Source: a virus. Taken from it: a stretch of 64,000 bases of DNA. A program made the translations under genes and the position numbers. The stretch lies in IMG/VR virus record IMGVR_UViG_3300046513_000221, positions 1 to 64,000 of that record; one strand, given 5' to 3'. Shown here piece after piece: positions 3,774 through 53,157 of the stretch. Each line of letters starts with the position of its first letter. Positions within the stretch are counted from its first letter, which is position 1. Under the pieces are notes generated by a model that saw only the letters and a program-made list of their open reading frames with translations, was not told the origin of the DNA and searched no databases.

Positions 3774-4485
3774 TTTTCTGTGTTCCCAAATGTGAGTGAT
3801 TACAAAAAATAAGAGAGATGGCCCGATGCCGAAGCACCGAGCCTCTCAACTGCTTCCCTTTTCTGGTGGAGTGGGTCGCTATCTTCTTCTCGTCTGTTGC
3901 TACGTTGGATTTTGAGGTACAGCTGTGTCGTGTGTACTGCCGATACTGCCTTTTCGACCGTGTCCAGTCTACGTTTGGGTTCCACAGGCCACCATTTCGC
4001 CTGAATCGTTAAGCACCGCCTCGTGGCGGCTCTCTGGGTGATGTGATGAGCGCGTTTCAGCCCCATCCGGTACTCGCCCGGTACGTTACTGTGCTACGAG
4101 TCATAGGGAGGAAACCATTTGTCCGTGTCCCTACGAAGTTGATCCCTCAGTCCCCGACGGTCTGAAGAATTTTGATGCAAGAAGTGAGGTTGAGGTGGGT
4201 AGCTTAAAGGCTTCTTCTCCGCTCGTGTGAAGGGGTGGAGAGAAAGGACGCCTCCCTCCTACCCGGAGAGTGGATCCCAATTAGGTGCCTCAGCGAATCG
4301 ATAAGCTGACCCACCGAGGCGAGAACGGTTCTCGAACTAGGTTCGATCCCCATTGGACCGGATTAACGGTAACCCTTTCGGGCTGCTTGAGAACGGGGGT
4401 TCCGTGGAATTCCCCGTAGTTGTTAGATGAACCTTTCAGTCCATCATCGATATAATATATCAACAAGTGACCTGCAGATACGGTC

Positions 4486-5085
4486 CTACCGGTGGGAGAG
4501 GATGAGCACGATCGAGGAGTTGTCCTGCAGCTGAGCCCAGAAGGTGTGGTCGCGACCACGGCCCGAGTCGCCCTCGCGGTAGCCGAAGCAGTGCAAACGC
4601 TCGCCGCTCTTCGTGACGAAGCCCTGCAGCATGTCTGCCAGCTCCGAGTCCTTGTCGCCCTGCTCGATCTTACCGGCGTACAGGAAGTCGCGGTCAGAGA
4701 CGTCGTCCGGAGCCTCGTTGTACTCGCGCATGAAGACGTACGACTTGAAGCCCTGATTCAGCAGGTTCTCGTCCGGATGCTGCTCCGCGAAGTGCTGCTG
4801 GAGGAACGCCTTGAACTTGTCGTCCTGAGACGCCTCCGGTTCCTTGAAGGCCGTCGAGATGACGACCTCAACGTCCAGACCCAGAAGGTCGTTGGCCTTT
4901 CCCGAGTTCGTCGGCGGACGCATCGAGCCGTGCTTGCCGATGTAGTGGCGCAGCTTCGGGTCGGTACCCGTGTCCATCGAGACGGTCGCACCGGCGTTCT
5001 CCAGAGCGTTCTTGATGGACAGACCTGCCTGGAACAGGCACTCGTCACCCGCCCTGGACTTCACTTCAAACAAAATCGCTTTCAT
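4486..5085 (-). CDS. hypothetical protein (about 199 aa)
   Basis: Second ATG (MKAILFEVK...) is preceded by GGGAGTGGG, so preferred over the listed start at 5097. Confidence 0.5.
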   Translation of the reverse strand: MKAILFEVKSRAGDECLFQAGLSIKNALENAGATVSMDTGTDPKLRHYIGKHGSMRPPTNSGKANDLLGLDVEVVISTAFKEPEASQDDKFKAFLQQHFAEQHPDENLLNQGFKSYVFMREYNEAPDDVSDRDFLYAGKIEQGDKDSELADMLQGFVTKSGERLHCFGYREGDSGRGRDHTFWAQLQDNSSIVLILSHR

Positions 5086-5115
5086 ACCCACTCCCATAAG
5101 AAAACCTACCTTGAT

Positions 5116-5457
5116 TTAACGCCTCCCACGGGCGTAACGGTACCGGCTGTACTGCCGGTCATCGTCACCCGCCTTGGAGACTGCCTTTTCCTGCTTCGGC
5201 CTGAGCGCGTCACGCGCCGCAGCCTGTGCCAGCCTCTCCTCCGTCATGGCCTCGGAGACGAGGCGCACTAGGTCGGAGTTCACTTCCTCGTACTGGTCGA
5301 TGAAACCCTGTACGTCAACCGTGTAGTTGCCAGCCGGTCGCCGGACGATCGTTATCGTCAGGTGCGGTCGGCTGGTCTTGAGCTTCTCTATGGCGTACTC
5401 GTAGTACTTGACGTAGCCAGCGAGGAACGGCTCGTAGTATGCGTCGTTGCTGCTCAT
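5116..5457 (-). CDS. hypothetical protein with basic C-terminus (113 aa)
   Basis: ATG start verified; C-terminal RYRYARGRR. Confidence 0.55.
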   Translation of the reverse strand: MSSNDAYYEPFLAGYVKYYEYAIEKLKTSRPHLTITIVRRPAGNYTVDVQGFIDQYEEVNSDLVRLVSEAMTEERLAQAAARDALRPKQEKAVSKAGDDDRQYSRYRYARGRR

Positions 5458-5463
5458 ACCGTC

Positions 5464-6075
5464 TTAGAAGATGAGGTTCAATCCGACGAGCGAACCCACA
5501 ACCAGCAGCACGGCGGCGCAGACCCAGTGCCAGCCGGTCATGGTGTCGTCGGTGGAGAACTTGGTCACCAGCTTGCGGTTGTACAAGCCCCAGAACATCG
5601 CACGGTTCTCGTACTCGGCGCTATCGTACTTCTTACGCAGCAGGAACCACATCGCCAGCGAGTAGGAGAACAGCAGTACGAACGTGCCGAAGAAGACCTT
5701 CAGCAGCGACGCACCGACGATCTTGTAGACGATGATGCCCATAGTGACCTTACCCAGAGGGGTCTGGACGAAGTCGTTAGCCGCCATGCCGATCTCCTTC
5801 GCTGCGGAGACGGCTGCGCGCCCCATGTTGCCGCCCAGATCGCCCCACGCCTCGGCCTCGGTGCGGATGGTCTTCGAGACGTTGGCCGGAGACTTCTCTT
5901 CCTTCTCCAGAGCGGCCACGTTGGCGATCAGAGTCGCCTTCTGCTCCGCCGTCAGCTTGCTCACGTCCAGCGACGAGATGCTGCTCGCGCTGGTCTGGGC
6001 GAACGCCATAGGGCAGAAGAGGATAGCCATGATAGCTATCAGGAGGTACACTGGTTGCATCAGTTTGTCGATCAT
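5464..6075 (-). CDS. membrane protein with N-terminal signal/TM segment and C-terminal TM helices (203 aa)
   Basis: N-terminus LLIAIMAILFCPMAFAQTSA is signal-peptide-like; three further hydrophobic segments. Confidence 0.6.
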   Translation of the reverse strand: MIDKLMQPVYLLIAIMAILFCPMAFAQTSASSISSLDVSKLTAEQKATLIANVAALEKEEKSPANVSKTIRTEAEAWGDLGGNMGRAAVSAAKEIGMAANDFVQTPLGKVTMGIIVYKIVGASLLKVFFGTFVLLFSYSLAMWFLLRKKYDSAEYENRAMFWGLYNRKLVTKFSTDDTMTGWHWVCAAVLLVVGSLVGLNLIF

Positions 6076-6076
6076 T

Positions 6077-6415
6077 TCATTTCTTTCTGATTTCGGTTGC
6101 GTTGCTGTGCCGTCTCACCAGCGCCGTGAAGCGCTTGAGACGAGCTCCTTTGTCCTTCGTACCGAAGACCCGATCCACCAGCTTCTGAACCTCGCCGATT
6201 TCCTTCGAGTCGTGCTCGTGGAAGAGGTCATACTCCTCCTCGGTCACGGTGACCTTCCGTACTTCCATGAAGTGAGTCGCGTCAGCGGTCTTCACCCACA
6301 TGAGATAAATCCCATCGCTCCTCTTGAAGAAGGCGATCTGTTGGGGCGAGGCCTCGACCATCCGGACGAACCGGGTGGTGGGCCAAGCCTCGTACTGCTC
6401 CGGTAGCGCGCTCAT
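6077..6415 (-). CDS. hypothetical protein (112 aa)
   Basis: ATG start; stop 1 nt from the next gene. Confidence 0.55.
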   Translation of the reverse strand: MSALPEQYEAWPTTRFVRMVEASPQQIAFFKRSDGIYLMWVKTADATHFMEVRKVTVTEEEYDLFHEHDSKEIGEVQKLVDRVFGTKDKGARLKRFTALVRRHSNATEIRKK

Positions 6416-15685: not shown

Positions 15686-16012
15686 TTACATCGACTTCAG
15701 AATCTGCAAGGACATCGCCTGTGGATTCTTCTTCGTCATGATCTCGATCGCCGTCTTCTTGACGCCGATCCATGCCGTCGCGGACAGCATGCTTGGGTAA
15801 TCCGCCAGCTTGCTCGCCCAGCGCAGTCCGGTACCCTCGGTACGGGCCTTGGCCTCGACGATGATCTCGTCGATTTCATTGGGGAAGATTGCGCAGTTGT
15901 ACAGGCGCACGCGCATGTTGGACTCCACGGTCTCCGGAGCCTTGAGGTCCGGCAGTTGGATGCCCGGATCTGCGGTCAGGTCGGCGTTACTCTTCGGGTA
16001 CTGCAGTGCCAT
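15686..16012 (-). CDS. hypothetical protein (108 aa)
   Basis: ATG verified. Confidence 0.5.
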   Translation of the reverse strand: MALQYPKSNADLTADPGIQLPDLKAPETVESNMRVRLYNCAIFPNEIDEIIVEAKARTEGTGLRWASKLADYPSMLSATAWIGVKKTAIEIMTKKNPQAMSLQILKSM

Positions 16013-16296
16013 TACGGGATTTCCTTCGCCATCAGTTGTTGCTTGATAATTCCGCTCATATCTTCTTGCAGAATGCCGTCGAGCTTGTAGTTGGCATTCT
16101 CCGGAGTGGACTTCGAGAGGCGGCGATAAGTGTCCATCATGTCATTCCCCAACTTCAGCACCTCGTCGCTAGGCATCTCGATCGGGATCGGCTGCGGCAT
16201 GTTGAGCTTGCCGGAGACGGTCGATGAAGGTACATCGCGAGGATTGACTCGTACAGTACGGGTGTTGATCCAAACGGTTTTTTCTTGATTACTCAT
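16012..16296 (-). CDS. hypothetical protein (94 aa)
   Basis: AAGGAAG RBS + ATG. Confidence 0.5.
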   Translation of the reverse strand: MSNQEKTVWINTRTVRVNPRDVPSSTVSGKLNMPQPIPIEMPSDEVLKLGNDMMDTYRRLSKSTPENANYKLDGILQEDMSGIIKQQLMAKEIP

Positions 16297-16388
16297 CTTA
16301 CTTCCTTACTCGTTGTGAAAAGCACGGGCGCTAACCCGCTCCCAGCCCAACTCCGCTGGCCTAAGTCTTTGACTCTCAGCCTCGTTTT

Positions 16389-16398
16389 AATTATATAT
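16389..16398 (-). promoter_or_regulatory. AT-rich promoter-like motif (ATATATAATT on minus strand)
   Basis: One copy of a recurring intergenic motif; 93 nt upstream of the 16012..16296 start. Confidence 0.3.
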
Positions 16399-20261: not shown

Positions 20262-20303
20262 AGCTCTACTTCCAATTAAAAAGTCAACGCATAACCCATA
20301 TGA

Positions 20304-20312
20304 ATAATATAT
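20304..20312 (-). promoter_or_regulatory. AT-rich promoter-like motif (ATATATTAT on minus strand)
   Basis: Intergenic; 43 nt upstream of the 19782..20261 start. Confidence 0.35.
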
Positions 20313-20336
20313 GAGCTATGCGTCTTTCAGATCGAT

Positions 20337-24324: not shown

Positions 24325-24388
24325 GATGCTCCCATAGGTACTAAATTCTTGAGTTTTCGAGTCTCCACTCGGATTTCTCTTCATTTTT

Positions 24389-24397
24389 ATAATATAT
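24389..24397 (-). promoter_or_regulatory. AT-rich promoter-like motif (ATATATTATA on minus strand)
   Basis: Intergenic; 65 nt upstream of the 23767..24324 start. Confidence 0.35.
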
Positions 24398-30917: not shown

Positions 30918-30953
30918 TAGTTTCCCTTTAGATTCTAGTCACAGTCAAACCTA

Positions 30954-30962
30954 TAATATATC
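30954..30962 (-). promoter_or_regulatory. AT-rich promoter-like motif (ATATATTATAGG on minus strand)
   Basis: Intergenic; 37 nt upstream of the 30672..30917 start. Confidence 0.35.
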
Positions 30963-35427: not shown

Positions 35428-36873
35428 TTAGTGTACGTTCTTCGGATCTTCGAAGAACATGTCCTTCACGTTCGTGCAGAACGGCACGATGGTACCGCTC
35501 AAGCCCGGATCACCGGACGAGGACGCATTCAGCGACAGGTTGCCGAGGAACGACTCGTGGATGCTGCGGTACTTGACCAGAACGTTACCACCGTTCGCAC
35601 CGAGGGACTGAGCGCCACGCGCCGACCACTTCAGTGCCACGTTGAACAGGTTCAGCGTGTTGGTGATGTTGGAGTAGCGCAGCAGCTCGTTGGTGATCAG
35701 GCGCTTGACGAGGAACATCGCGCCGATGTTGCTGAACACCGTCTCCAGACGCTTCATGTCGATGTTGCGGCTGTTCAGGATGCGGACGGTGATCTCGGAC
35801 CACTTGATCAGCAGCGGGAAGATCAGGTACTCGTACAGGCGCAGACGGCGCGTGTAGATGTTGAGGCTGTCCAGCTGGTGCAGCTCTTCGTAGTTCCATG
35901 CCATGTAGCGCACGACATCGAAGGTGCTCTGCTTACCGTCATCCGGCAGCTCGCGCAGGTTCTTCTTGGTACGCTCGTCGAGGATGCGCTCCAGCGACAT
36001 GATGGCCTTGTCTGCCTTCTCCAGCTTGGAGGTCGGCGAGGTCAGGATCTTACGACGCCAGAAGTCGCCGGACGCCAGACTAGTGGACTTCTTCACGTTC
36101 TCCAGCACATGATGCAGGGAAATCACGAGGTTGCGGAAGTTGGCATCGGACTGCAGACGCTCCTTGTTGACCACCATCGTCATGGTCTTGCTCGGATGGA
36201 AGTACTCGAAGTCGCTGTCCACCTCGACCTCTTGATCATTGAAGACGAACACGTCCTCATCCAGCTTCATCAGACGCATGGTCTCCTCGAAGCCGTACTT
36301 GATGAAGAAGTAGATGAAGAAGTTCTTGAATGCGTTGATGTTGTTCGAGCGGGTCTTGAAGAAGTCCAGCAGGAACACCTTACCGTTGTAGTCGGTGCCG
36401 CCGTTCGACTGGATGGTCGTCTGCTTGTGGCGAACGCCCAACGGCATCAGCAGCGTCTTCAGGAAGATACCATTGCGCACGTTGTAGAAGTTCTTGTCTG
36501 CAACCTGCAGGATCGCGTAGTAGCGGTTCCCGTTCAGGATGAAGAAGTAGTCGTCGACCAGCTTCGGGATGAACAGGTGCAGAGCGCGCTCCTTCTTCTC
36601 ACCCTCCCACTCGATCATGAACCGGGCCTCGATCAGGTCCAGACGCGATTCCTCGATCGAGATGGTCTGCTTCGAGATGTACTTGTGGCACTCCTCCTCG
36701 TTGATGCGCTTCATGTCGAGGAACTTGATGCCGGGGATCGAGTTCAGCGTCGAGAACAGGTCGCGGAAGTAGCTGTCGATGTCCTCGCGTTGACGGATGT
36801 AGATCAGGTCTTCATTGAACTTCTCCGGGTTGTCTGCCTGGAACTTCTTGTAGAATTGGGTTTGGATGTCCAT
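35428..36873 (-). CDS. candidate multisubunit RNA polymerase beta-subunit N-terminal fragment (481 aa)
   Basis: Real start MDIQTQFYKK with AAGGAG RBS. C-terminal LGANGG ... RSIHESFLGNLSLNASSSGDPGLSGTIVP resembles the beta fork-loop region (LGPGGL ... [24 protein letters not shown]). Lies a few genes from the beta'-like gene. The product call is tentative. Confidence 0.6.
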   Translation of the reverse strand: MDIQTQFYKKFQADNPEKFNEDLIYIRQREDIDSYFRDLFSTLNSIPGIKFLDMKRINEEECHKYISKQTISIEESRLDLIEARFMIEWEGEKKERALHLFIPKLVDDYFFILNGNRYYAILQVADKNFYNVRNGIFLKTLLMPLGVRHKQTTIQSNGGTDYNGKVFLLDFFKTRSNNINAFKNFFIYFFIKYGFEETMRLMKLDEDVFVFNDQEVEVDSDFEYFHPSKTMTMVVNKERLQSDANFRNLVISLHHVLENVKKSTSLASGDFWRRKILTSPTSKLEKADKAIMSLERILDERTKKNLRELPDDGKQSTFDVVRYMAWNYEELHQLDSLNIYTRRLRLYEYLIFPLLIKWSEITVRILNSRNIDMKRLETVFSNIGAMFLVKRLITNELLRYSNITNTLNLFNVALKWSARGAQSLGANGGNVLVKYRSIHESFLGNLSLNASSSGDPGLSGTIVPFCTNVKDMFFEDPKNVH

Positions 36874-36881
36874 GCTGCTCC

Positions 36882-37139
36882 TTAGCGAACGTTCTTGTAG
36901 GCTTCCAGAACTGCCGCCTTGACGACCTCCGGTGCTGCGGTGAAGTAGTCGGCAACCATCGCCACGGTCCACTTGGAGCCGTTGCGCGGTGCCGAGCCGG
37001 TCATGTAGAATGCCAGCTTGTCGGAGATGACGCGCCAATGACGTTCAGTGATCTCTTCCATCTTGAGGCCGAGAAACTCAGCGACTTCCTCTGCGTGGTA
37101 GATGTAGCTGTGGGTTACCAGCCCGGATACGATAGCCAT
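36882..37139 (-). CDS. hypothetical protein (85 aa)
   Basis: ATG verified. Confidence 0.45.
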   Translation of the reverse strand: MAIVSGLVTHSYIYHAEEVAEFLGLKMEEITERHWRVISDKLAFYMTGSAPRNGSKWTVAMVADYFTAAPEVVKAAVLEAYKNVR

Positions 37140-38634: not shown

Positions 38635-38708
38635 TCTCAGTTCGGCATCTATTATAACGCCATTTTCGGTTTTACGCTATGCAACTTAACAACAGTCGAT
38701 ATCACTGC

Positions 38709-38718
38709 TATTATATAT
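38709..38718 (-). promoter_or_regulatory. AT-rich promoter-like motif (ATATATAATA on minus strand)
   Basis: Intergenic between the beta' gene stop and 38580. Confidence 0.3.
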
Positions 38719-38739: not shown

Positions 38740-40308
38740 TTACTCCTTGGTGAGCATGTACAGTGCCAGACCACCCTCACGATGGATGCCCCGGATGAAG
38801 TTACCCTGAGTATCCATATAGTTCATCGGCGAGAACATGATCTTTTCCGCCTCGATGTTGGCCTCTGCGGAGAACAGACCTGCCACACGCATCGTGTCGC
38901 CGTCGTAGTCACCACCGAGACCCTTCATGTATGCGAAGTTCGGTACGTAGGTGTCGATCCACTGGATCTTGTCTTCGAGGATCGTGTTCTTACCATCGGT
39001 CGGGAAGAACGGGTAGTCCTTGAAGTTCTTGTTACCGGTTCCGCCCTCGCTCACCAGACCGGACACGTCCACGGTTTTCTCCGTGGTCAGGATCTTCACC
39101 CGGCAGGTGATGACGGACTCGGGACCAGTCACCGGGAAGCGGGTGGCGATTACGTGCTTGTCGCGGCACACGTCGATCGCGGCGTCGTACAGGAAGTCGG
39201 TCAGTGTGTAGTGGCGATCCGGCAGACCCTTGATACCCTCGATGTTTTTCATGATCGGAGTGCGATCACCGACGCCGTTCAGACGAAAGGCCTGAGTACG
39301 GATCCGCTTAGTCTTGTCCTTGATGTAGCCGTTCACGATCTTCTGGATGTTCGCGGACGAGATGGTCTCGTACACGGTGTCCTGTAGGTCGTAGCGTTCG
39401 TCACCCTCCAGTACGATCGATGCCGAGTGCTCGTACTCATGGAAGAAGTCTTCGATCCACTTGATGATGAACGGATAGAACAGGTTCAGTGCCAGATGGA
39501 GCGGTACCCCGAAGTAGTTGTATGGGATCTGCTGCGTCTCGGGGGTGTTGCTCTTGATCTGCGAGCAGGAGAGCACGCCGATGGTCGAGTAGTCGATGGA
39601 CTTACCCATGATGGCCTGACGGATCACGCCCTTCTTACCGGCGATCTTCTGAGTCAGTTCCTTATGGATCTCGACCAGCAGGTTCTGCACGGAGGATTGG
39701 GTGATGTAGCTGTTCTCGAAGATGATGGCCTCCGAGGTGGCGGCATTCAGGAGCTTGATGTACAGGGCGTTGACACCCTCCACAGTGATCTTCTTGGAGC
39801 CGGACTGACTGGAGAAGTTCACATCGCGGTAGTAGGCAGGGATGACCAGCCACTTGTCGAGGAAGATCTCATCGAACTTGAGCATGTTGAGCAGCTCGTC
39901 CTTCTTCTCGCGGCTAGCGTTGATAGTACCTTCCTTCACCCACTTGATCTTCTTCCAGTTCTTGACGAAGAAGTCGATGCCGCACTCACCCTGCTCCGGG
40001 TCGTCGGACACAACGAGGTTGCCGAACTGGTCGAGCCGGACGTACTTGTCACCAGCCAGAACGAGCGGCAGCGCACGAAACATCTGGAAGATGGTGATGT
40101 ACACCATCGGGTGAAAGAACTTACGACGGAGATCGATAAAGCCGAAGTTGTTCTTACGCTCTTCCGAGCCGAACTTACCGAAGATCTTTGTCGAGAACAG
40201 ACCGTCCTCGCTTGGGAGTCCATCCGATCCGAGATAGAAGCGGTTGTTTACTTGCTCGCAGCCGTTCACACGGATGAACTCGTTCATGTTGAATGCGTCT
40301 AATTGCAT
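38740..40308 (-). CDS. multisubunit RNA polymerase beta'-like subunit, N-terminal fragment (522 aa)
   Basis: KGLGGDYDGDTMRVAG is the universal NADFDGD Mg-binding motif, sitting near the C-terminus as in split beta' N-fragments; RFPVTGPESV region; AAGGGAAAG RBS. Confidence 0.7.
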   Translation of the reverse strand: MQLDAFNMNEFIRVNGCEQVNNRFYLGSDGLPSEDGLFSTKIFGKFGSEERKNNFGFIDLRRKFFHPMVYITIFQMFRALPLVLAGDKYVRLDQFGNLVVSDDPEQGECGIDFFVKNWKKIKWVKEGTINASREKKDELLNMLKFDEIFLDKWLVIPAYYRDVNFSSQSGSKKITVEGVNALYIKLLNAATSEAIIFENSYITQSSVQNLLVEIHKELTQKIAGKKGVIRQAIMGKSIDYSTIGVLSCSQIKSNTPETQQIPYNYFGVPLHLALNLFYPFIIKWIEDFFHEYEHSASIVLEGDERYDLQDTVYETISSANIQKIVNGYIKDKTKRIRTQAFRLNGVGDRTPIMKNIEGIKGLPDRHYTLTDFLYDAAIDVCRDKHVIATRFPVTGPESVITCRVKILTTEKTVDVSGLVSEGGTGNKNFKDYPFFPTDGKNTILEDKIQWIDTYVPNFAYMKGLGGDYDGDTMRVAGLFSAEANIEAEKIMFSPMNYMDTQGNFIRGIHREGGLALYMLTKE

Positions 40309-40447
40309 GATGCTTTCCCTTGATTGGTTGGGTTATCTAAAGTACTGTTACTCTTTAAACTAAAGGAGTTTTGTCGGTAATTACCTGAAAGCACCAGCTG
40401 TGCGCAAACAGTTGGTTAGATCCCACTAACCAACCGAGTCAATCCAC

Positions 40448-40879
40448 ATGGACTTCATTTTCGAACTCATCAAGTTAGTCTTCACGATGGTGCAATTCAC
40501 AAACATCGTCCTGTCCTGCATCTTGATCTTCTCCGGAATCGCGCTGTTCCGGTACATCAAGCAGGCACTTCGAGGATTCGACAGGTGGATTCACCTGATC
40601 GTGGTGCTGCAAGTGGCCGTGTGCCTCCTGCTGCTATCCATCTACGAAGTGAAGAGTGCAGAGACCGTCATAAAGACGGCCTTGTATTCAAGTTTTGCGT
40701 ATCAATTCTCCATCTTCGCGCTGCTGGTCATAAACGCCCTGTTCCAATCCGGCATCTACAAGTTCTTCTCGGAGAAACATTGCGACGTGACGCTCTTGGG
40801 CAACATCCTCAAGATCATCCACAGCCAGAGCAACGTGAGCGTCAAACCTTCGAACGAAGGCGAAGCCTCCGCAACCTAG
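40448..40879 (+). CDS. polytopic membrane protein (143 aa, about 4 TM)
   Basis: ATG verified; four hydrophobic helices. Confidence 0.55.
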   Translation: MDFIFELIKLVFTMVQFTNIVLSCILIFSGIALFRYIKQALRGFDRWIHLIVVLQVAVCLLLLSIYEVKSAETVIKTALYSSFAYQFSIFALLVINALFQSGIYKFFSEKHCDVTLLGNILKIIHSQSNVSVKPSNEGEASAT

Positions 40880-40894
40880 GAATACGTTTCTACC

Positions 40895-41422
40895 ATGAGC
40901 AAGCAAGGCTTTATTACTGAAGAAGGGGTGTACTACGAGTCTATGACGCAAATTAACGCATCGGACGCACCTGTCCCTCTTCGCCCGAGTGAAGACGATG
41001 TCTTCACGAACGGAACATGGATCTCGAACCGCCGCGCCAGCCGCCAGCAGCAGTTCGACTTCCAGACCCAGCCTACGGTTCGGGAGATCCCGCAACCAGC
41101 TTCTCAGGATAGCTCGTCGCGTGATATAAACACTTACAGGATCGGCGAGGACACGCAGTTCAAGTTCAAGCTGAAGGACATCGTCATCGTGGTGGCATTC
41201 ATCGTCTCGATCGCAATTAGCTGGAATAACTCCGACACGCGCATGACGCGTACCGAGGAGAAGCTCTCCCAGCTCAAGAGCGATCTGGTTCAGCTCAAGA
41301 GCGATCTGAGTGAATCGATGAAAAAGAACGATGAACTCTGGCGTCGCCAAGAGGACATGAACCGTACCCTGTCGCAGCAGATCTTCAACGAGTTCCGCGA
41401 TCGCACAGGACAACACAAGTAA
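40895..41422 (+). CDS. single-pass membrane protein with C-terminal coiled coil (175 aa)
   Basis: TM segment IVIVVAFIVSIAISW followed by a LSQLKSDLVQLKSDLSESMKK heptad region. Confidence 0.55.
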   Translation: MSKQGFITEEGVYYESMTQINASDAPVPLRPSEDDVFTNGTWISNRRASRQQQFDFQTQPTVREIPQPASQDSSSRDINTYRIGEDTQFKFKLKDIVIVVAFIVSIAISWNNSDTRMTRTEEKLSQLKSDLVQLKSDLSESMKKNDELWRRQEDMNRTLSQQIFNEFRDRTGQHK

Positions 41423-41467
41423 AAAAAAAGACACCCATAGCCCCGGAAAGGGCTATGGGTTCTTTTT
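41421..41467. terminator. bidirectional terminator A9-ACCCATAGCCC-N6-GGGCTATGGGT-T5 between convergent genes
   Basis: 11-bp perfect stem flanked by an A-run and a T-run. Confidence 0.7.
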
Positions 41468-43867: not shown

Positions 43868-43919
43868 GTCAAATCTCTATGTGAGTAATAGATTGTTGGA
43901 TCGTCTCACTCACACCAAA

Positions 43920-43928
43920 ATAATATAT
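43920..43928 (-). promoter_or_regulatory. AT-rich promoter-like motif (ATATATTATTTT on minus strand)
   Basis: 53 nt upstream of the 43118..43867 start. Confidence 0.35.
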
Positions 43929-45849: not shown

Positions 45850-47535
45850 CTATGCCAGCAGCGCCTCCAGATCGACGATGACGTCGTTGACGTCAGGCAG
45901 ACCGAGGAGTTCCTTGCCGATTCGGATGATATCGTTCTCGGCGATGAGGCCGGGGATGATATCGTCGAGTTCCGGACGCTTGTCGCACATGATCTTGCCG
46001 ATCATGGTGTCCGCATCGATGTTACCTGCCAGAATGATCGATGGATACATGGACGATAAGTCCTCGTCCACAATATTCTCGAAGATGCGATTGGAGCGCT
46101 TGCCATCCTTGCTGATGACGATGCCGACGGCGTCCATCATCTCAGGCAGAGCCACGAATGCACCCTTGAACTTCTTCTTCTCTTCCTCTTCCTTCAGACG
46201 GTTGTGGTTGTTGGACAGGAGGAAACCCTCCTTCTCCAGAACCATCGCCGCGAAGTTACGGATCGAGGTGGTCTTGGTCATGACCTTGTTGAAGCGGGTC
46301 GCGGTCATCAGGCCCATGTTGTACAGCAGGTCGATGTCGTTGTTCTGCTCTTCGAGCTGATACAGACGGAACGAGTCATACATCGAGTACTTGAGGAAGC
46401 TCTCGTAGTTGATGTACATCGCGTCCGTGATCTCGCCCTCGTACTCATACTTACCTTCGATCCCCTCGTCGATCAGGATCGCATCCAGAGCGTACGATTC
46501 GCGCTTGCCCATCGTCGCCCGGATCTTGGCGAACTGCTCCTGCATCTCGACGAACTGCGAGTAACCTGCAACCTCCAGCTTGGTGTTCCGCTTGGTGAAG
46601 TCGGTTGCGAAGGAATCGTTCTCGATCCATGTGGACTTGTACGGCAGCTCCTTTGGACACATCACCTCTTCAGGCTTTAGCTTCAGTCGGAGCATACGGT
46701 TCTTCATGGTTACCAAGTCGAACCCGGCGTTCCAAGCACCCATGAAGTCGGGTTTGTCACGCTTCACGATCTTGAAGAAGTCCTTCAGCAGCTCCGCCTC
46801 ATCGTCGTAGATGTGTACCTCGATCGCACGCACCTTGGCGTAATCGATCTTGGAGTTTGGATCCTTCTCGTTCATCTCGTCGATGACCTGAGAGATCCAC
46901 TCATCGCCGTATTCTGCGAATGCTTCAAGGAAGTCCATCTGAGATTGGTTGTTCTCGTTCTTCAGGATGAACGAGTGGATGGTCATCGTCGGCTGGTGGA
47001 TGTACGAGATCATCGACACCGGACATGGAGCCAGCTCTGGTTCAGGAAACTCCCTGTACTCCGACACATCGACCTCAATATCGTAGAACGCCTTGGTGAT
47101 CGGCAGGACTGCGATCTGGTGACGGTTGCGGTCGAGCCACTCACGCGTCTTGTAGTCTGCCAGATCCATGTCCGTCAGGTGCAGGTTGTTGTCCTTGTGG
47201 AGGTTACGGAGTTCCTTCCACTTACCGTTGTTCTTACAAGCCTTGTAGAAGTCCATCTGGTCGGAGGCCTTAGCCATCTCATACTGCAGATTGTCGAACT
47301 TCACGGTTATCGGCTCGACCTTGTCGAACTCGATGTAATTCGCTGCCTTCTTCAGCCTGAACTCGTCCTTGGTAATGTAGAACGTGTAGGACGGATCCTC
47401 CTCGATCTCGAATTGCTTCTTGATCGTACCATCCGGTTGAAGTACGCTCTCCACATAGATGATCTTGGAGTGCTGGCGATTGTTGTCGTCACGATCGCGA
47501 ACGTGCAAGACGTTCGATAGCTGTTTTCCGCTCAT
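45850..47535 (-). CDS. family-B DNA polymerase, N-terminal part (3'-5' exonuclease domain + polymerase motif A, 561 aa)
   Basis: Exo I YDIEVD; Exo II WNAGFDLVTM; Exo III YSMYDSFRLYQL; motif A DLSSMYPSIILAGN. The protein ends about 70 aa after motif A. Confidence 0.75.
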   Translation of the reverse strand: MSGKQLSNVLHVRDRDDNNRQHSKIIYVESVLQPDGTIKKQFEIEEDPSYTFYITKDEFRLKKAANYIEFDKVEPITVKFDNLQYEMAKASDQMDFYKACKNNGKWKELRNLHKDNNLHLTDMDLADYKTREWLDRNRHQIAVLPITKAFYDIEVDVSEYREFPEPELAPCPVSMISYIHQPTMTIHSFILKNENNQSQMDFLEAFAEYGDEWISQVIDEMNEKDPNSKIDYAKVRAIEVHIYDDEAELLKDFFKIVKRDKPDFMGAWNAGFDLVTMKNRMLRLKLKPEEVMCPKELPYKSTWIENDSFATDFTKRNTKLEVAGYSQFVEMQEQFAKIRATMGKRESYALDAILIDEGIEGKYEYEGEITDAMYINYESFLKYSMYDSFRLYQLEEQNNDIDLLYNMGLMTATRFNKVMTKTTSIRNFAAMVLEKEGFLLSNNHNRLKEEEEKKKFKGAFVALPEMMDAVGIVISKDGKRSNRIFENIVDEDLSSMYPSIILAGNIDADTMIGKIMCDKRPELDDIIPGLIAENDIIRIGKELLGLPDVNDVIVDLEALLA

Positions 47536-47614: not shown

Positions 47615-47727
47615 ATTTATTATTTATAATTATTTAAATTCGCGACACGTACGCGCGCGCGAGAAAGTCATTCGAGCTCCACCAGCTGACCGGAAGTCCA
47701 CTGAAAATGTGATGCTTAACAACCCAA

Positions 47728-47736
47728 TAATATATA
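47728..47736. promoter_or_regulatory. AT-rich promoter-like motif in divergent region (AATAATATATA)
   Basis: Between the 47535 (-) start and the 47777 (+) start; the following AT-rich block 47610-47660 also looks promoter-like. Confidence 0.3.
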
Positions 47737-47776: not shown

Positions 47777-48625
47777 ATGGCAGAAACAGGAAATCAAGTC
47801 GCCACCACAGGTCAGTCCTTCAGTAATACTGAGCTGACCCTGCGCGACATCATAGCACAGAATACATTCTCGGACAACGAGGCGATGTTGAAGCAGGAGC
47901 TGACAGAGGCCAATGAGCTCTTCACTCTTGTCAAGGGACTGCTGATGGACGAGGTAGGCGAGATCGCCAAACCGGCCACCCCTCAGCGCATGGGTACGGT
48001 GCAGCAGACCAAGCGTCGCAACATGATGTTCATCTCAAGTCAGACGACGAACCTGATCAGCATCAAGAACCTTAAGATGTCGCTGATCACGAAGCTCAGC
48101 GGCCTCCAGCAGGACCAGCTGGATCGTAACATCAGGGCGCTCTCCCAGATCGCCAAAGAGAACAAGATCGAGGATTCCGAGAGCAACCCAACGGCGGTTC
48201 TGGACTTCATCCTCAACAACCTCAACATCACGATCCCAATCGCCCCGGCTCTCCGGGCGCAGATGGGACTGCGGCCAGCCCACGACATCTCCGCCGAAGT
48301 CGATCTGGACTCGATCATCGATGCCGAGGAGGCAAGGGAGAACGAGTTCAAGCAGGAAAAGACCTCGTTCACCGCACCGCCTCCGAAGAAGCTGGTGAAG
48401 CCGAAGGTGGAACCCAAGGTCGAGGAACCGCTCTACAAACTGGCGTACGACGACGCTGGGAACACCCTCGTCTACAACGTGGAAGAGGACAAGATGGTCG
48501 TGGTCGATGGTGGCTACGAGATCATCAAGGAGCTGCAGTCTGACGAATACGAGGTTGACGTCCTCCCGGACGGCTCGTACTACGACAAGCACACCAACAC
48601 ACTAATCGAACTCATAGGAGAATAA
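47777..48625 (+). CDS. hypothetical protein, first gene of plus-strand late block (282 aa)
   Basis: GGAG RBS + ATG; GC3-rich codon usage. Confidence 0.55.
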   Translation: MAETGNQVATTGQSFSNTELTLRDIIAQNTFSDNEAMLKQELTEANELFTLVKGLLMDEVGEIAKPATPQRMGTVQQTKRRNMMFISSQTTNLISIKNLKMSLITKLSGLQQDQLDRNIRALSQIAKENKIEDSESNPTAVLDFILNNLNITIPIAPALRAQMGLRPAHDISAEVDLDSIIDAEEARENEFKQEKTSFTAPPPKKLVKPKVEPKVEEPLYKLAYDDAGNTLVYNVEEDKMVVVDGGYEIIKELQSDEYEVDVLPDGSYYDKHTNTLIELIGE

Positions 48626-49840: not shown

Positions 49841-49979
49841 GTTCTTCGGCGGCGGTCTCCAAAAAATGCTACCGCCGAACTAAATTGACCCTAACATTCA
49901 GATAGAATGCAGCCTTCAGAGGGCTGTGTAAGTTGATTTAGGATAACCTAAACCTCTTTTACTTTTAAGGAAGAATCAC

Positions 49980-51563
49980 ATGTCTATCAGCTACGATACC
50001 GTCCACCAAAGCACCGTGGGCAGCAAAGTCTCCGCCATTCTGGAAAAACTGCCAGCGATCAACGAATCGTTCGCAGCAGAAGGCCTGAACGTCCTGAACG
50101 AAGGTTTCTCGGAAGTTGCTGCTAACAAGCACTACTACGAAGACTACGTCACCAAGCTGAGCGAAGGTCTGGACCCGGTAGCTGCCGCCCAGTTCCAATC
50201 GCTGGCCGACACCACCCGTACCCAGATCCTGCAAGAAAGCTCGATCTCGGGCATCAACCCGATCACCGCACTGGCGCTGCCGATGCTGCGCGTGGCATGG
50301 CCAAAAACCTCGATCCGCGAAGGCTTCCCGACCGAACCGGTCATGCAGCCGAAGTTCAAGGTGACCTGGCTGAAGCCGTACTTCATCGACGCTTCGACCA
50401 ACGAAAAGATCTTCATGCCTGCTGGCATCAGCAAGCGTAAAGACCTGTTCAAGCTGAAAATGCTGCAGGAAACCCCAATTCTGGTCGGCGCTGCCGGTCT
50501 GAACGGCTACGACCTGCTGACCCCTGTCGGCGCGAACGCATCGCTGGGCGACGAAATCGATCCGAACTTCTCGATCAGCGGCGTGACCTTCAAGGCACTG
50601 GACGCAACCGGCGCTAACCCGGTCAACGTCACCGTGGACGTCGAGTTCGAACTGGACACCAACATCGACGTGATCGAAGGCACCGCCTCCGGCAAGCACA
50701 CCGATGGTACCGACAACAAAGTTCGCGTGTTCGCGAAACTGAACCGTCGTGACGGCCAGATGGACGTCGTCGGTCTGGGCCGCGAAGTCGTCAGCGTAAC
50801 CGTCAAGGGCTACCTGTCGTCCGAAGCCAACAACCGCGCTACCCAAGTCGGTTTCGACGTTACGTCGGACGAGACCGTCATCGGTACCGGCCAACCGATC
50901 GAATCGCCGATCAACATCCAGCAGATGACCGACACGATGGCGATGTACAACATCGACTCGACCGTCAAGACGCTGGAAATCATGTCCACCGCGCTGGCAC
51001 AATCGACCGATCTGGAAGGCATCGACTTCCTGGAGCGTCGCTTCATGCTGGGCCTGAAACTGCAGACCGAGTTCGACGTGAACCCACCTGCCAACTTCCA
51101 GCTGGGCAACACCGCATGGCGCGAAGAGATCAAGATCAAGATCGACAATCTCGTGACCCGTCTGATGCAGTCCACCAACATCACCGCTGGCTCGGTCGTG
51201 ATCTTCGGCAACCCGCTGGACACGCAGATCCTGTCGAACGTGAAGTGGATGTACTCCGGCGAAGACCAGCCTAACGGCGTCAACATCGAGTACCGCGTCG
51301 GTAACTACACCTCCGGCGTGACGAACTACAAGGTTCTGTCGTCGTTCAACTTCGGTCAAGGCGAGCTGTACGTCGCGTTCCTGCCATCCACCCCGGATCA
51401 GGCGACGCTGAAGTACTACCCGTACTCGTTCAACGTTGTGCGCGGCACCGCCTCGCCTAACCGCACGTTCAACCCTGCTGTTCAGATGATCAAACGCCAC
51501 GTCTTCAAGGAGTACTCCTCGATGGTCGGCAAGATCAAGATCAAGAACAACAACGGCCTGTAA
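49980..51563 (+). CDS. putative major capsid protein (527 aa)
   Basis: Extreme codon bias (CTG, CCG, GGC, ATC ... dominate). AAGGAAG RBS; strong terminator immediately downstream; position in the structural module. Fold not verified. Confidence 0.65.
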   Translation: MSISYDTVHQSTVGSKVSAILEKLPAINESFAAEGLNVLNEGFSEVAANKHYYEDYVTKLSEGLDPVAAAQFQSLADTTRTQILQESSISGINPITALALPMLRVAWPKTSIREGFPTEPVMQPKFKVTWLKPYFIDASTNEKIFMPAGISKRKDLFKLKMLQETPILVGAAGLNGYDLLTPVGANASLGDEIDPNFSISGVTFKALDATGANPVNVTVDVEFELDTNIDVIEGTASGKHTDGTDNKVRVFAKLNRRDGQMDVVGLGREVVSVTVKGYLSSEANNRATQVGFDVTSDETVIGTGQPIESPINIQQMTDTMAMYNIDSTVKTLEIMSTALAQSTDLEGIDFLERRFMLGLKLQTEFDVNPPANFQLGNTAWREEIKIKIDNLVTRLMQSTNITAGSVVIFGNPLDTQILSNVKWMYSGEDQPNGVNIEYRVGNYTSGVTNYKVLSSFNFGQGELYVAFLPSTPDQATLKYYPYSFNVVRGTASPNRTFNPAVQMIKRHVFKEYSSMVGKIKIKNNNGL

Positions 51564-51614: not shown

Positions 51615-51664
51615 GCCTCGTCTCGAATCGGCTAACTAAGTATTAGTGGTAACGACTAGGAGGC

Positions 51665-52555
51665 ATGACCATGAACCACCCAAGCAATTTTACTCAAGAG
51701 CTGCACGCATATGCCGAACAGGCAGGTTGCGGTCTCACCACGCTGAGTTCCGATGTGATCGATGGCTACGTCATCGACATCGCCGACCCGGCCAGCCGCG
51801 TGGCTATCAACCTCGTACCCCTGAACGGGATCGAGAGTCCAGACAACAGGTTGCTCGAAATGTCCATGAAGGCACATGAGAACAACTTCACACTCTATCA
51901 CGTCTTCGAATCGGACTGGATGCATCGTCGCTCAGTCCTGATGAAGAAGATCGACTCCCTTCTCGGGATTGGCAGCGAAGAGAAAACGATCTACCGCTCG
52001 AAAAAGTGTGAGATCCGGCGCATCGATGAGAAGACCTTCCGGGAATTCTTCCGCACCAATTCGGTCGCGGTAACATCGAAAGCCGATAAGTACTTCGGAA
52101 TGTATCCGATCGACAAGCAAGACACAACACTGGTCGCGGCGATCGCCGTTAAGAACCTGAAGAAGGATCCGAACGGCTCCATCATCACGTCCTATGTGAC
52201 CAACCTCGACCACAAGGTCGTTGGTGCTTTTGGCAAGTTCGTGGGATACCTGAAGGGCGGCAAGAACTACTGTCTGTACCACGCGGATCTCCGCTGGTTG
52301 GACCTGCGTTCGACCTTCCTCAACAAGGCTTCCATGAAGTTCGTCAAGGTGTCGGAGCCACTGCGCTTCGCCTACACCCAGAGCATCAAGAAGCTCCACC
52401 TGCTGAACGGGATGACCCGCGAGAGTCTTTCGTCCCGCGTATCCTTGTCGAAGCCGTACGATACACGGCTCTCGATTGAGGATAATCTGGCAGCGAATGA
52501 CTTCAGCTTCATCCGCGATGCTGGCTGTATGATCTTCTCCTCGAAGAAGAACTGA
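51665..52555 (+). CDS. hypothetical protein in its own terminator-flanked unit (296 aa)
   Basis: AGGAGG RBS; terminators on both sides; less biased codon usage than the capsid gene. Confidence 0.55.
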   Translation: MTMNHPSNFTQELHAYAEQAGCGLTTLSSDVIDGYVIDIADPASRVAINLVPLNGIESPDNRLLEMSMKAHENNFTLYHVFESDWMHRRSVLMKKIDSLLGIGSEEKTIYRSKKCEIRRIDEKTFREFFRTNSVAVTSKADKYFGMYPIDKQDTTLVAAIAVKNLKKDPNGSIITSYVTNLDHKVVGAFGKFVGYLKGGKNYCLYHADLRWLDLRSTFLNKASMKFVKVSEPLRFAYTQSIKKLHLLNGMTRESLSSRVSLSKPYDTRLSIEDNLAANDFSFIRDAGCMIFSSKKN

Positions 52556-52560
52556 AAAAC

Positions 52561-52598
52561 CCGCTAGACCCCGAGAGGTCTAGCGGTTTTCATTTTAC
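52561..52598. terminator. bidirectional terminator CCGCTAGACC-N6-GGTCTAGCGG + TTTTCATTTT
   Basis: 10-bp stem; A5 upstream and T-run downstream. Confidence 0.7.
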
Positions 52599-53011
52599 TT
52601 CTTGGCCATCGGCTGCGGTACCGCACCCTGCATGAACTGGCGTGCGCGAGCAACGGCCTTCGAGCCGTACTTGCGATGGATCAGTTCGCGCAGCTGCAGA
52701 CGGATGCCGTTGTACTTGGCGTACTTGGCATACAGGGCGTCGCCCTTGGCTTTCGCCAGCAGCAGAGCCTGACGGTGGGCCAGGTTGTTGGTCTTGGCTT
52801 GACGGTTCAGGTGGACGATGATGTTCTGCTCGGACAGAGCTTTGATCACGACTTCCTCGTCCAGTGCTTGGAAAGCACCGGCCATCTTGCGCATCGCCAG
52901 CTCTTCGTCCAGCGGCAGTTCCACTTCAGGGGCAGCGCCCGGAGCGCCGGTTTGGACTGCGGTCTCAGCCAGCAGGTCTTGCAACAGTTTCGTCGACATA
53001 TGTGACTCCAT
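52595..53011 (-). CDS. hypothetical protein (138 aa)
   Basis: ATG at 53009-53011; Ala/Lys-rich. Confidence 0.5.
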   Translation of the reverse strand: MESHMSTKLLQDLLAETAVQTGAPGAAPEVELPLDEELAMRKMAGAFQALDEEVVIKALSEQNIIVHLNRQAKTNNLAHRQALLLAKAKGDALYAKYAKYNGIRLQLRELIHRKYGSKAVARARQFMQGAVPQPMAKK

Positions 53012-53145
53012 AAGTTGGGGTGTTAAGCGTCACCGTCCCACGTCTGGGAGACGTAAATCCCTTCAGATGAAATGAGACAGTTACTTTCTAATTAGATGTT
53101 AGGCTTGCGAAAAAATAAAATAGCCAATCACAAGAACGGATACGT

Positions 53146-53157
53146 GTATATATAATA
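53146..53157 (+). promoter_or_regulatory. AT-rich promoter-like motif (TATATATAATAT) upstream of the DNA polymerase C-fragment gene
   Basis: 55 nt upstream of the 53212 ATG in a divergent intergenic region. Confidence 0.3.

What the first reader, a model, noticed from the sequence alone, without database searches (positions are those of the whole stretch)
4452..53157. Recurring AT-rich promoter-like element ATATATTAT(A) in intergenic spacers of the minus-strand gene block
Copies occur at 4452-4460, 16389-16398, 20304-20312, 24389-24397, 30954-30962, 38709-38718, 43920-43928 and 47728-47736 (plus coordinates). Related TATATATAATAT lies at 53146-53157. On the transcribed (minus) strand they read (A/T)ATATATTAT(A/T) or ATATATAAT(A/T). 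They sit 37-190 nt upstream of gene starts and only in the rare spacers. This resembles the short AT-rich early-promoter consensus (TATATTAC-like) that I recall for phiKZ-type virion RNAP, rather than a sigma70 -35/-10 pair. It probably defines the early transcription units of this region.
Basis: partly seen in the sequence, partly recalled or inferred. Interest (0 to 1): 0.55.

Follow-up and report, generated by a model that had tools for sequence, protein, structure and literature searches.

The report
Jumbo-phage early promoters, AR9 type
The recurring ATATATTAT element is real and matches the experimentally mapped early promoter of the related giant phages AR9 and phiR1-37, which the phage's own injected RNA polymerase reads, so this is a new example of a known signal in an uncultured, GC-rich relative.

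Summary
Confirmed. ATATATNAT occurs exactly 10 times in the 64-kb window (55% GC). All 10 copies lie in the 9% of sequence that is intergenic. All point toward the downstream gene, and all are followed by N6-G (9 of 10 by N5-TG). Shuffles of the spacers alone predict 0.21 copies, and 58 kb of coding sequence holds none.

The window comes from an uncultured jumbo phage of the AR9/phiR1-37 clade (capsid protein 46% identical to phiR1-37). The element matches the early promoters mapped in those phages: AR9 AAATATATATTAT-(6N)-G+1, and the promoters annotated in phiR1-37. Both are attributed to the virion RNA polymerase.

The motif recurs at matching positions in five uncultured relatives with GC from 31 to 58%. 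It heads operons for both DNA polymerase halves and a non-virion RNAP subunit. It is absent before the capsid, tail sheath and virion-RNAP genes. Those carry AACA-N6-TA, the AR9 late-promoter consensus.

The closest match is AR9/phiR1-37 rather than phiKZ.

This is a new member of a known kind and of moderate interest. Start sites and polymerase identity are inferred, not measured.

The parts
316..331 (-). Early promoter P1: ATATATGAT-ttctat-G, inferred TSS at 316. Leader of 33 nt to the ORF 41-283.
4445..4460 (-). Early promoter P2: ATATATTAT-atcgat-G, inferred TSS at 4445. Followed by about 670 nt with no credible ORF (3774-4445).
16383..16398 (-). Early promoter P3: ATATATAAT-taaaac-G, inferred TSS at 16383. 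Leader of 87 nt to the gene 16012-16296.
20297..20312 (-). Early promoter P4: ATATATTAT-tcatat-G, inferred TSS at 20297. Leader of 36 nt to 19782-20261. The core lies inside the hairpin plus T-tract at 20324-20286.
24382..24397 (-). Early promoter P5: ATATATTAT-aaaaat-G, inferred TSS at 24382. Leader of 58 nt to 23767-24324.
30946..30961 (-). Early promoter P6: ATATATTAT-aggttt-G, inferred TSS at 30946. Leader of 29 nt to 30672-30917.
38703..38718 (-). Early promoter P7: ATATATAAT-agcagt-G, inferred TSS at 38703. Heads the operon that contains the non-virion RNAP beta gene. Same position as the promoter annotated after g178 in phiR1-37.
43913..43928 (-). Early promoter P8: ATATATTAT-tttggt-G, inferred TSS at 43913. 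Preceded by the terminator 44014-43987. A late-type AACA-N6-TA lies in tandem at 43886-43897.
47720..47735 (-). Early promoter P9: ATATATTAT-tgggtt-G, inferred TSS at 47720. Leader of 185 nt to the PolB N-terminal-half gene. Interlocked back to back with the plus-strand late-type promoter at 47718-47729.
53148..53163 (+). Early promoter P10: ATATATAAT-atggat-G, inferred TSS at 53163. Leader of 49 nt to the PolB C-terminal-half gene. Conserved at the same position in L004, L006, L008 and L005.
35428..36873 (-). Non-virion RNAP beta subunit (N-terminal half), ortholog of AR9 g105. Lies in the early unit driven by P7.
38740..40308 (-). Virion RNAP beta-prime subunit (N-terminal part), ortholog of phiR1-37 g178 (a structural protein) and AR9 g145 (virion RNAP subunit). 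No early motif upstream; late-type AACA-N6-TA at 40338-40349.
45850..47535 (-). Family B DNA polymerase, N-terminal (exonuclease) half. First gene after P9.
53212..55176 (+). Family B DNA polymerase, C-terminal half. First gene after P10.
49893..49904 (+). Late-type promoter AACAttcagaTA, 76 nt before the major capsid gene 49980-51563. The same motif lies 54-76 nt before the capsid gene in L004-L010 and 60 nt before it in phiR1-37.
63777..63788 (-). Late-type promoter AACAgtagatTA, 72 nt before the tail sheath gene 61918-63705.
47718..47729 (+). Late-type promoter AACAacccaaTA, 48 nt before 47777-48625. This gene heads the block that contains the endolysin and runs up to the capsid gene.

Best explanation
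These are the early promoters of an uncultured jumbo phage of the AR9/phiR1-37 clade. Each consists of an invariant core, A-15 T A T A T N A T-7, then W at -6 and T-1 G+1, with no -35 element.

Proposed mechanism, inferred by homology: the multisubunit virion RNA polymerase is packaged in the capsid and injected with the DNA. It binds this element, centred near -10, and starts at the G seven bases after the core. It needs neither the host polymerase nor new protein synthesis.

The transcripts cover replication genes (both PolB halves) and a subunit of the second, non-virion RNA polymerase. That second enzyme then reads a different signal, AACA-N6-TA, placed before the capsid, tail sheath, virion-RNAP and other late genes.

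Shown here: the motif, its statistics, its placement and orientation, its conservation in relatives, and the orthology of the genes. Inferred: the start site, the identity of the polymerase, and the timing.
For: 1. Statistics. ATATATNAT occurs 10 times, all intergenic, against 0.21 expected from spacer-only shuffles and 0 in 58 kb of coding sequence.

2. Constraint outside the search pattern. G lies 7 nt after the core in 10 of 10 window sites (12 of 12 with two further sites just past the window end). T at -1 is seen in 9 of 10 (11 of 12), and W at -6 in 10 of 10 (12 of 12).

3. Orientation. All sites point toward the next gene, with leaders of 29-185 nt for nine of ten.

4. Phage identity. 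Capsid protein 46% identical to phiR1-37 and 36% to AR9. Split RNAP and PolB genes are present.

5. Match to mapped promoters. AR9 has 41 dRNA-seq-supported early promoters with consensus AAATATATATTAT-(6N)-G+1; transcription from two tested ones did not require new protein synthesis, and they are attributed to the virion RNAP (PMC5312081). AR9's annotated promoters read the same way. phiR1-37's annotated promoters read ATATAT(T/A)AT-N5-TG, and 56 of that phage's predicted promoters were confirmed by RNA-seq (PMC4848604).

6. Conservation. The motif is present in spacers at matching positions in relatives L004-L008 (capsid identity 65-82%, GC 31-58%), before the PolB-C and PolB-N operons.

7. 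Regulatory logic.
   - The ortholog of AR9 g105 (non-virion RNAP beta) lies in an early unit.
   - The ortholog of the virion beta-prime subunit (phiR1-37 g178, AR9 g145) lacks the early motif and has AACA-N6-TA instead.
   - AACA-N6-TA is enriched in spacers, 10 observed against 2.49 expected (0 of 1000 shuffles), and precedes the capsid gene in every relative examined.

8. Not sigma-70-like. Sigma-70-type hits are below chance, and only 1 of 10 sites has a -35-like hexamer.
Against: - There are no transcript 5' ends or expression data for this phage. The start site, the timing and the polymerase are all inferred from relatives.
- Only one virion-RNAP subunit gene lies in the window. The rest of the enzyme was not seen.
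- AR9's 5' AAAT extension of the core is not conserved here.
- Terminator-like hairpins sit inside the leaders of P7 (38634-38607) and P9 (47603-47587). If efficient, they would stop early transcripts before the genes.
- P2 has no obvious gene to drive for about 670 nt.
- An in-register upstream box, CCGTATCTG, is present at 4-5 of 12 sites. This hints at an extra factor or a promoter subclass not described for AR9.
- The core contains a good sigma-70 -10 hexamer (TATWAT at -12 to -7), so some use by the host polymerase cannot be excluded from sequence alone.
Confidence: 0.88

Rival explanations
1. Host sigma-70 promoters of the '-10 only' kind. The host RNA polymerase holoenzyme would recognise TATWAT at -12 to -7 and start 7 nt downstream.
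For: The core contains TATAAT, TATTAT or TATGAT at exactly the -12 to -7 position relative to the conserved G. One site (53148) also has a -35-like ATCACA at an 18-nt spacing.
Against: - Nine of 10 sites lack a -35-like hexamer, and sigma-70-type hits in the window are fewer than in shuffles.
- No site has the TG of an extended -10 element.
- ATA at -15 to -13 and T-1 G+1 are invariant, and no one-mismatch variants of the core with the downstream TG exist. This is unlike the degenerate sigma-70 consensus.
- The same 9-mer with the same spacing is used by relatives infecting Bacillus and Yersinia. In AR9, early transcription does not need new proteins and is assigned to the injected phage polymerase.
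Confidence: 0.05
2. Promoters for a different phage-directed activity, such as the non-virion RNAP or a middle class depending on a phage-made factor, rather than the virion enzyme.
For: - No timing data exist for this phage.
- An extra upstream box at some sites could be a factor binding site.
- phiR1-37 transcripts from such promoters were reported as largely constitutive.
Against: - A non-virion RNAP subunit gene lies downstream of one of these promoters, so at least that unit must be read by something present before the non-virion enzyme exists.
- The non-virion enzyme of AR9 reads AACA-N6-TA/G. That motif forms a separate, enriched class here, before late genes.
Confidence: 0.05
3. Not promoters at all: a compositional or structural feature of spacers, such as AT-rich terminator tails, DNA-bending sites, or N4-style hairpin signals.
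For: - Spacers are more AT-rich (47% GC) than genes.
- Several sites lie next to hairpins, and P4 lies inside one.
- ATATAT is self-complementary.
Against: - Spacer-only shuffles predict 0.21 copies against 10 observed.
- The orientation is strictly that of the downstream gene, and the fixed N5-TG is asymmetric.
- No consistent stem accompanies the core across sites.
- Long AT-rich runs elsewhere, for example 47615-47660, do not carry the motif.
Confidence: 0.02

Closest known systems
Bacillus phage AR9 early (virion RNAP) promoters, consensus AAATATATATTAT-(6N)-G+1 (Lavysh et al. 2017, PMC5312081)
   Same: - The nine 3' bases of the consensus (ATATATTAT) are identical, as are the 6-nt spacer and the G at +1.
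- Sites are intergenic and upstream of early genes, including the non-virion RNAP beta gene (AR9 g105 and its ortholog here).
- There is almost no tolerance of mismatches.
- Some genes carry early and late promoters in tandem.
- Density is similar, about one site per 6 kb.
   Different: - AR9's 5' AAAT extension is not conserved here; the upstream bases are G/C-rich or variable.
- Position -9 is free here (T, A or G, and C in relative L005).
- The genome is 55% GC, so the element stands out as an A/T island.
- A subset of sites carries a CCGTATCTG box at about -38 to -30, which is not described for AR9.
- No experimental data exist for this phage.
Yersinia phage phiR1-37 A-dU-rich promoters (annotated in AJ972879.2; 56 confirmed by RNA-seq, PMC4848604)
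   Same: - The core ATATAT(T/A)AT-N5-TG is the same.
- phiR1-37 is the closest cultured relative (capsid 46%, virion beta-prime 45% identity).
- A promoter sits directly after the virion beta-prime gene in both genomes.
   Different: - phiR1-37 usually places a terminator with a T-tract just before the promoter. Here that arrangement is clear only at P8, and at P4 the terminator hairpin contains the core; at P7 the order is reversed.
- phiR1-37 is 33% GC over the 41.5-kb stretch examined.
phiKZ early promoters (28-32 sites; AT-rich extended -10 plus a T-rich stretch upstream of -19; PMC8244752, PMC7598289)
   Same: The principle is the same: an AT-rich element of about 10 nt centred near -10, read by an injected multisubunit virion RNAP, independent of the host polymerase.
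   Different: - phiKZ belongs to a different phage lineage.
- The reviews state that the motifs differ from phage to phage.
- The phiKZ sequence itself was not compared here.
- No T-rich upstream stretch is seen in this window, only a T at -21 in 9 of 12 sites.
AR9 late (non-virion RNAP) promoters, AACA-(6N)-T A/G+1
   Same: This applies to the second motif class found here. It has the same sequence and spacing, lies 19-90 nt before the capsid, sheath, virion-RNAP and other late genes, and is conserved before the capsid gene in all relatives and in phiR1-37.
   Different: - All intergenic copies here end in TA, mostly TAG, rather than TA/G.
- The dependence on template-strand deoxyuridine shown for AR9 cannot be assessed from sequence.

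Membership tests
AR9/phiR1-37-type virion-RNAP early promoter | Highly conserved AT-rich core ATATAT(T/A)AT centred near -10 | tested here: met
   Ten of 10 sites carry ATATATNAT (T six times, A three times, G once at the variable position). The core is identical to the AR9 and phiR1-37 promoter sequences.
AR9/phiR1-37-type virion-RNAP early promoter | Conserved start nucleotide G exactly 6 nt after the core | tested here: met
   G at that position in 12 of 12 sites of this genome, and T before it in 11 of 12. That this G is the actual start site is inferred, not measured.
AR9/phiR1-37-type virion-RNAP early promoter | Intergenic, co-oriented with early-type genes (replication, non-virion RNAP); absent before virion genes | tested here: met
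   All sites are intergenic and co-oriented. They precede both PolB halves and the operon with the AR9 g105 ortholog. None precedes the capsid, portal, sheath or virion beta-prime genes.
AR9/phiR1-37-type virion-RNAP early promoter | The phage encodes a virion-packaged multisubunit RNAP | tested here: inconclusive
   One subunit is present: 38740-40308 is the ortholog of phiR1-37 g178 ('phage structural protein') and AR9 g145 ('virion RNAP subunit'). The other subunits were not found in the 64 kb, and packaging cannot be tested.
AR9/phiR1-37-type virion-RNAP early promoter | Transcription immediately after infection, without new protein synthesis and without the host RNAP | not testable with these tools
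   This needs infection experiments or in vitro transcription. The phage is known only from metagenome assemblies.
AR9/phiR1-37-type virion-RNAP early promoter | AR9's full 13-nt consensus including the 5' AAAT | tested here: not met
   Positions -19 to -16 are variable and mostly G/C here. The extension is therefore specific to AR9, or reflects its base composition, rather than defining the clade.
Bacterial sigma-70 promoter | -35 hexamer 16-18 nt upstream of a -10 hexamer | tested here: not met
   Only 1 of 10 sites passes the consensus scan. Window-wide hits are below the shuffle expectation (4 against 6.9, 5 against 10.2, 7 against 11.0).
AR9-type non-virion-RNAP late promoter (second motif class) | AACA at -11 to -8, six free bases, then T-1 and A/G+1, upstream of late genes | tested here: met
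   Ten intergenic copies against 2.49 expected (0 of 1000 shuffles), and AACA-N6-TAG 7 against 0.55. Eight lie 19-90 nt before co-oriented starts. The motif precedes the capsid gene in L004-L010 and in phiR1-37.
AR9-type non-virion-RNAP late promoter (second motif class) | Recognition of template-strand deoxyuridine (dU-substituted genome) | not testable with these tools
   Base modification is invisible in assembled sequence. The small ORF next to the g105 ortholog shows no similarity to the AR9 uracil-glycosylase inhibitor g104.

The most novel reading that the evidence does not exclude
The early promoters of this phage may fall into two subclasses. One is the bare core. The other is a bipartite form with an in-register (C)CG(T/A)A(T/C)CTG box 14-15 nt upstream of the core, at about -38 to -30. 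The bipartite form is seen at 323, 4452 and 20304 and at two sites just past the window end. The box could bind a co-injected factor or a distinct part of the virion polymerase and so set an 'immediate-early' tier. One of these promoters (P2) would drive a roughly 670-nt non-coding early RNA.
Probability: 0.15. Interest if true: 0.55.

Novelty: new member of a known kind. Interest (0 to 1): 0.35.

Why it matters
The result gives a ready transcription map for an uncultured 55%-GC jumbo phage. It has ten early promoters and at least eight late-type promoters in 64 kb, with the expected division of labour between the two polymerases.

Relatives with GC from 31 to 58% keep the same all-A/T core. 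This separates what the virion polymerase probably needs (ATATATNATW-N4-TG) from the AT-rich background that surrounds the motif in AR9 and phiR1-37. That is useful, because how this sigma-less enzyme recognises promoters is still unknown.

As a by-product, the AR9 late-promoter motif also lies before structural genes in phiR1-37 (capsid, sheath and several others), for which no late consensus had been reported.

Tried and rejected
- DNA-level search of a 12-kb piece of the window against the phage collection found no match. A protein search was needed to place the phage.
- The search for related loci with PolB-N in viral contigs found nothing.
- Two metagenome scans with the genes flanking the ORF-free region after P2 gave nothing, then one weak partial hit (L017). 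That region could therefore not be compared across relatives.
- tRNA and Rfam searches of the window found no hit at gathering thresholds. The relaxed scan of 3750-4500 gave only one chance-level hit.
- Folding the 379 nt after P2 gave a z-score of -1.95, which is not decisive.
- I tested whether the small ORF 36882-37139, next to the g105 ortholog, is the AR9 uracil-glycosylase inhibitor. There was no similarity, so nothing can be said about dU DNA.
- Pfam scans of 20 further window proteins were almost uninformative.
- The near-match at 30644 and the plus-strand one-mismatch hits (38647, 45805, 47615) were rejected as members. They lack the N5-TG, or they overlap a start codon or an AT-rich run.
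- N4-type hairpin promoters were considered and rejected. No consistent stem flanks the core, and the polymerase here is multisubunit.

Full report
**Observation.**
The window is 51-60% GC throughout. Exact ATATATTAT occurs six times, always on the minus strand, against 0.04 expected. With one mismatch there are 16 hits against 1.95 expected. The pattern ATATATNAT occurs exactly ten times on both strands together. Nine copies are on the minus strand, with cores at 323, 4452, 16390, 20304, 24389, 30953, 38710, 43920 and 47727. One is on the plus strand, at 53148.

I built a gene map with a self-trained codon model. It agrees with independent gene calls on overlapping public contigs. About 9% of the window is intergenic, and all ten sites fall there. 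Shuffling only the spacers (47% GC), keeping their dinucleotide content, predicts 0.21 copies. The 58 kb of coding sequence contains none. The motif is also the commonest A/T-only 9-mer in the window.

One site was missed (323-331), and three coordinates are off by one.

**Anatomy.**
I aligned the ten sites on the core. The invariant positions are A T A T A T at -15 to -10 and A T at -8 and -7. Position -6 is always A or T. Position -1 is T in 9 of 10 sites. The base seven positions after the core is G in 10 of 10.

The downstream T, G and W were not part of the search pattern, so they are independent evidence of a constrained family. No one-mismatch variant of the core carries the downstream TG. 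The signal is all-or-none.

Every site points toward the next gene on its strand. The distance from the conserved G to the start codon is 29-185 nt for nine sites. About 9.7 kb of the same genome lies just past the right end of the window (locus L014). It contains two more sites, both ATATATGAT-N5-TG, both intergenic, 55 and 61 nt before co-oriented genes.

**What the window is.**
- PHROG and Pfam hits identify a jumbo-phage major capsid protein, a tail sheath, a split family-B DNA polymerase and two RNA-polymerase beta/beta-prime-like proteins.
- The capsid protein is 46% identical to Yersinia phage phiR1-37 and 36% to Bacillus phage AR9. It matches nothing outside that clade in the phage collection.
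- There is no DNA-level match to any deposited phage.
- The sequence comes from metagenome assemblies.

**Comparison with mapped promoters.**
For AR9, dRNA-seq and primer extension defined 41 early promoters with consensus AAATATATATTAT-(6N)-G+1. Two tested ones remained active when protein synthesis was blocked, and the class is attributed to the injected virion RNA polymerase. [quoted passage not shown] The same paper notes that the phiKZ and phiR1-37 promoters also place the start 6 nt after the element (PMC5312081). AR9's annotated early promoters read AAATATATATTATttataaG and AAGCATATATTATattcctG.

The promoters annotated in the phiR1-37 record read, for example, ATATATTATtaccatG, ATATATTATtttagtG and ATATATAATcatattG. 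Fifty-six of that phage's predicted promoters were confirmed by RNA-seq (PMC4848604).

The window's element is therefore the same signal in its core, its spacer and its start nucleotide. A review states that every RNAP-encoding jumbo phage has such an AT-rich element of about 10 nt near -10 before its early operons (PMC7598289).

**Conservation in relatives.**
A capsid homology search found a family of uncultured relatives. I fetched seven loci around their capsid genes.

In the five closest (capsid identity 65-82%, GC from 31% to 58%), ATATATNAT-N6-G again lies in spacers and at matching positions:
- before the PolB C-terminal half or the small genes that precede it: L004 3420, L006 13485, L008 11512, L005 15919;
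- in the divergent spacer heading the PolB N-terminal operon: L005 7889, L006 7815.

The free position -9 takes all four bases across these genomes. The two most distant loci (L009, L010) do not show the motif in their spacers.

**Regulatory logic.**
- The gene 35428-36873 is the ortholog of AR9 g105, annotated as the non-virion RNAP beta subunit. In AR9 it lies behind an annotated early promoter. Here it lies in the unit headed by P7 (TSS 38703).
- The gene 38740-40308 is the ortholog of phiR1-37 g178 (annotated 'phage structural protein') and of AR9 g145 ('virion RNAP subunit'). It has no early motif. It carries AACAgtacttTA 30 nt before its start codon.
- AACA-N6-TA is the AR9 late-promoter consensus, read by the non-virion RNAP.
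- In the window's spacers this motif occurs 10 times against 2.49 expected (0 of 1000 shuffles). With the trailing G it occurs 7 times against 0.55 expected.
- Eight copies lie 19-90 nt before co-oriented starts, including the capsid, sheath and endolysin-block genes.
- The motif lies 54-76 nt before the capsid gene in all seven relatives and 60 nt before it in phiR1-37.

The picture is coherent. The injected polymerase reads the early promoters, which leads to replication proteins and the second polymerase. That enzyme reads the late promoters, which leads to virion proteins, including the next generation of virion polymerase.

**Rival explanations.**
The core contains a good sigma-70 -10 hexamer at -12 to -7, so use by the host polymerase is the main rival. 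Against it:
- sigma-70-type hits are below chance in all three scans, and only one site has a -35-like hexamer;
- there is no extended -10 TG;
- ATA at -15 to -13 and TG at -1/+1 are invariant, which is unlike sigma-70 promoters;
- the same element serves relatives in very different hosts, where early transcription is assigned to the phage enzyme.

Spacer composition is excluded by the spacer-only shuffles. A hairpin-type signal is not supported, because no consistent stem accompanies the core.

**Unexplained details.**
1. Four sites carry ATCTG in the same register: 323, 4452, 20304 and L014:3707. A fifth (L014:3309) has ACCTG. The box lies 14-15 nt upstream of the core, within a (C)CG(T/A)A(T/C)CTG context. 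This in-register sharing was reached in 0 of 3000 composition shuffles and 7 of 3000 rotation controls. It is not seen in the relatives.
2. T at -21 is seen in 9 of 12 sites of this genome and in all six sites of L005 and L006.
3. P2 (TSS 4445) is followed by about 670 nt with no credible ORF. Predicted structure is only marginally better than shuffles (z = -1.95 for the first 379 nt), and there is no Rfam match.
4. Terminator-like hairpins lie inside the leaders of P7 and P9.
5. The P4 core sits inside a terminator hairpin.
6. At 47718-47735 a plus-strand late promoter and the minus-strand early promoter P9 interlock, with inferred start sites 9 bp apart. The same arrangement is seen in L005.
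7. At 43886-43928 an early and a late-type promoter lie in tandem before one gene. AR9 shows this arrangement for continuously expressed genes.

**Verdict.**
The element is a member of the known AR9/phiR1-37 class of virion-RNAP early promoters, found in a new, GC-rich, uncultured phage. It is not a new kind of signal.

Its value is practical. It gives a transcription map and a sharper definition of the recognition core. Start sites, timing and polymerase identity remain inferences until transcripts are mapped.

Noticed in passing
window 49893-49904(+), 47718-47729(+), 55748-55759(+), 40407-40418(+), 63777-63788(-), 53089-53100(-), 40338-40349(-), 43886-43897(-); L003 19930; L004-L010: AACA-N6-TA(G), the AR9 late (non-virion RNAP) promoter consensus, is enriched in spacers. 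It sits 54-78 nt before the capsid and sheath genes in this phage, in seven uncultured relatives and in phiR1-37. The published phiR1-37 transcriptome study reported no late consensus.
   Followed up: yes
window 47718-47735; L005 7880-7897: A plus-strand late-type promoter and the minus-strand early promoter interlock back to back. Their inferred start sites are 9 bp apart, and each one's recognition element overlaps the other's start region. The arrangement is conserved in a relative and could make the two polymerases mutually exclusive at this spacer.
   Followed up: partly
window 3774-4445 (-): The early promoter P2 is followed by about 670 nt with no credible ORF, and no gene is called there on the public contig. 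The region ends near a UUCG-loop hairpin at 3843-3820. There is no Rfam or tRNA hit, and the folding z-score is -1.95 for the first 379 nt. It may be an early non-coding RNA or a very long leader.
   Followed up: partly
window 38634-38607 (-) and 47603-47587 (-): Strong terminator-like hairpins with T-rich tails lie inside the leaders of early promoters P7 (+70 to +97) and P9 (about +117 to +133), before the first gene. They could be attenuators or ends of short RNAs, or terminators that the virion polymerase ignores.
   Followed up: no
window 346-354, 4475-4483, 20327-20331 (-); L014 3290-3294, 3688-3692: An in-register upstream box, (C)CG(T/A)A(T/C)CTG, lies 14-15 nt 5' of the promoter core at 5 of 12 early promoters of this genome. 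It is not seen in relatives or in the AR9 and phiR1-37 consensus.
   Followed up: partly
window 20286-20324 (-): The P4 core lies inside a 39-nt hairpin followed by a T-tract. The hairpin would terminate the upstream gene's transcript. The promoter's own start site falls within the 3' arm, so its own transcript cannot form the hairpin.
   Followed up: no
loci L004-L008 versus window: Phages with 65-82% capsid identity span 31% to 58% genomic GC. This is a large compositional range for one clade, yet both promoter motifs are kept.
   Followed up: no
window 40448-41422 (+): Two plus-strand genes of unknown function are embedded in the long minus-strand block. They have their own late-type promoter (40407-40418) and a bidirectional terminator (41433-41460). 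The same pair sits at the equivalent place in relative L005.
   Followed up: no
L005 11640-15312, L007 9645-12667, L010 6464-7657: Relatives carry large DUF723 proteins or an IS605 OrfB/TnpB-like gene inserted next to the capsid gene, where the window has none. These are likely mobile insertions.
   Followed up: no
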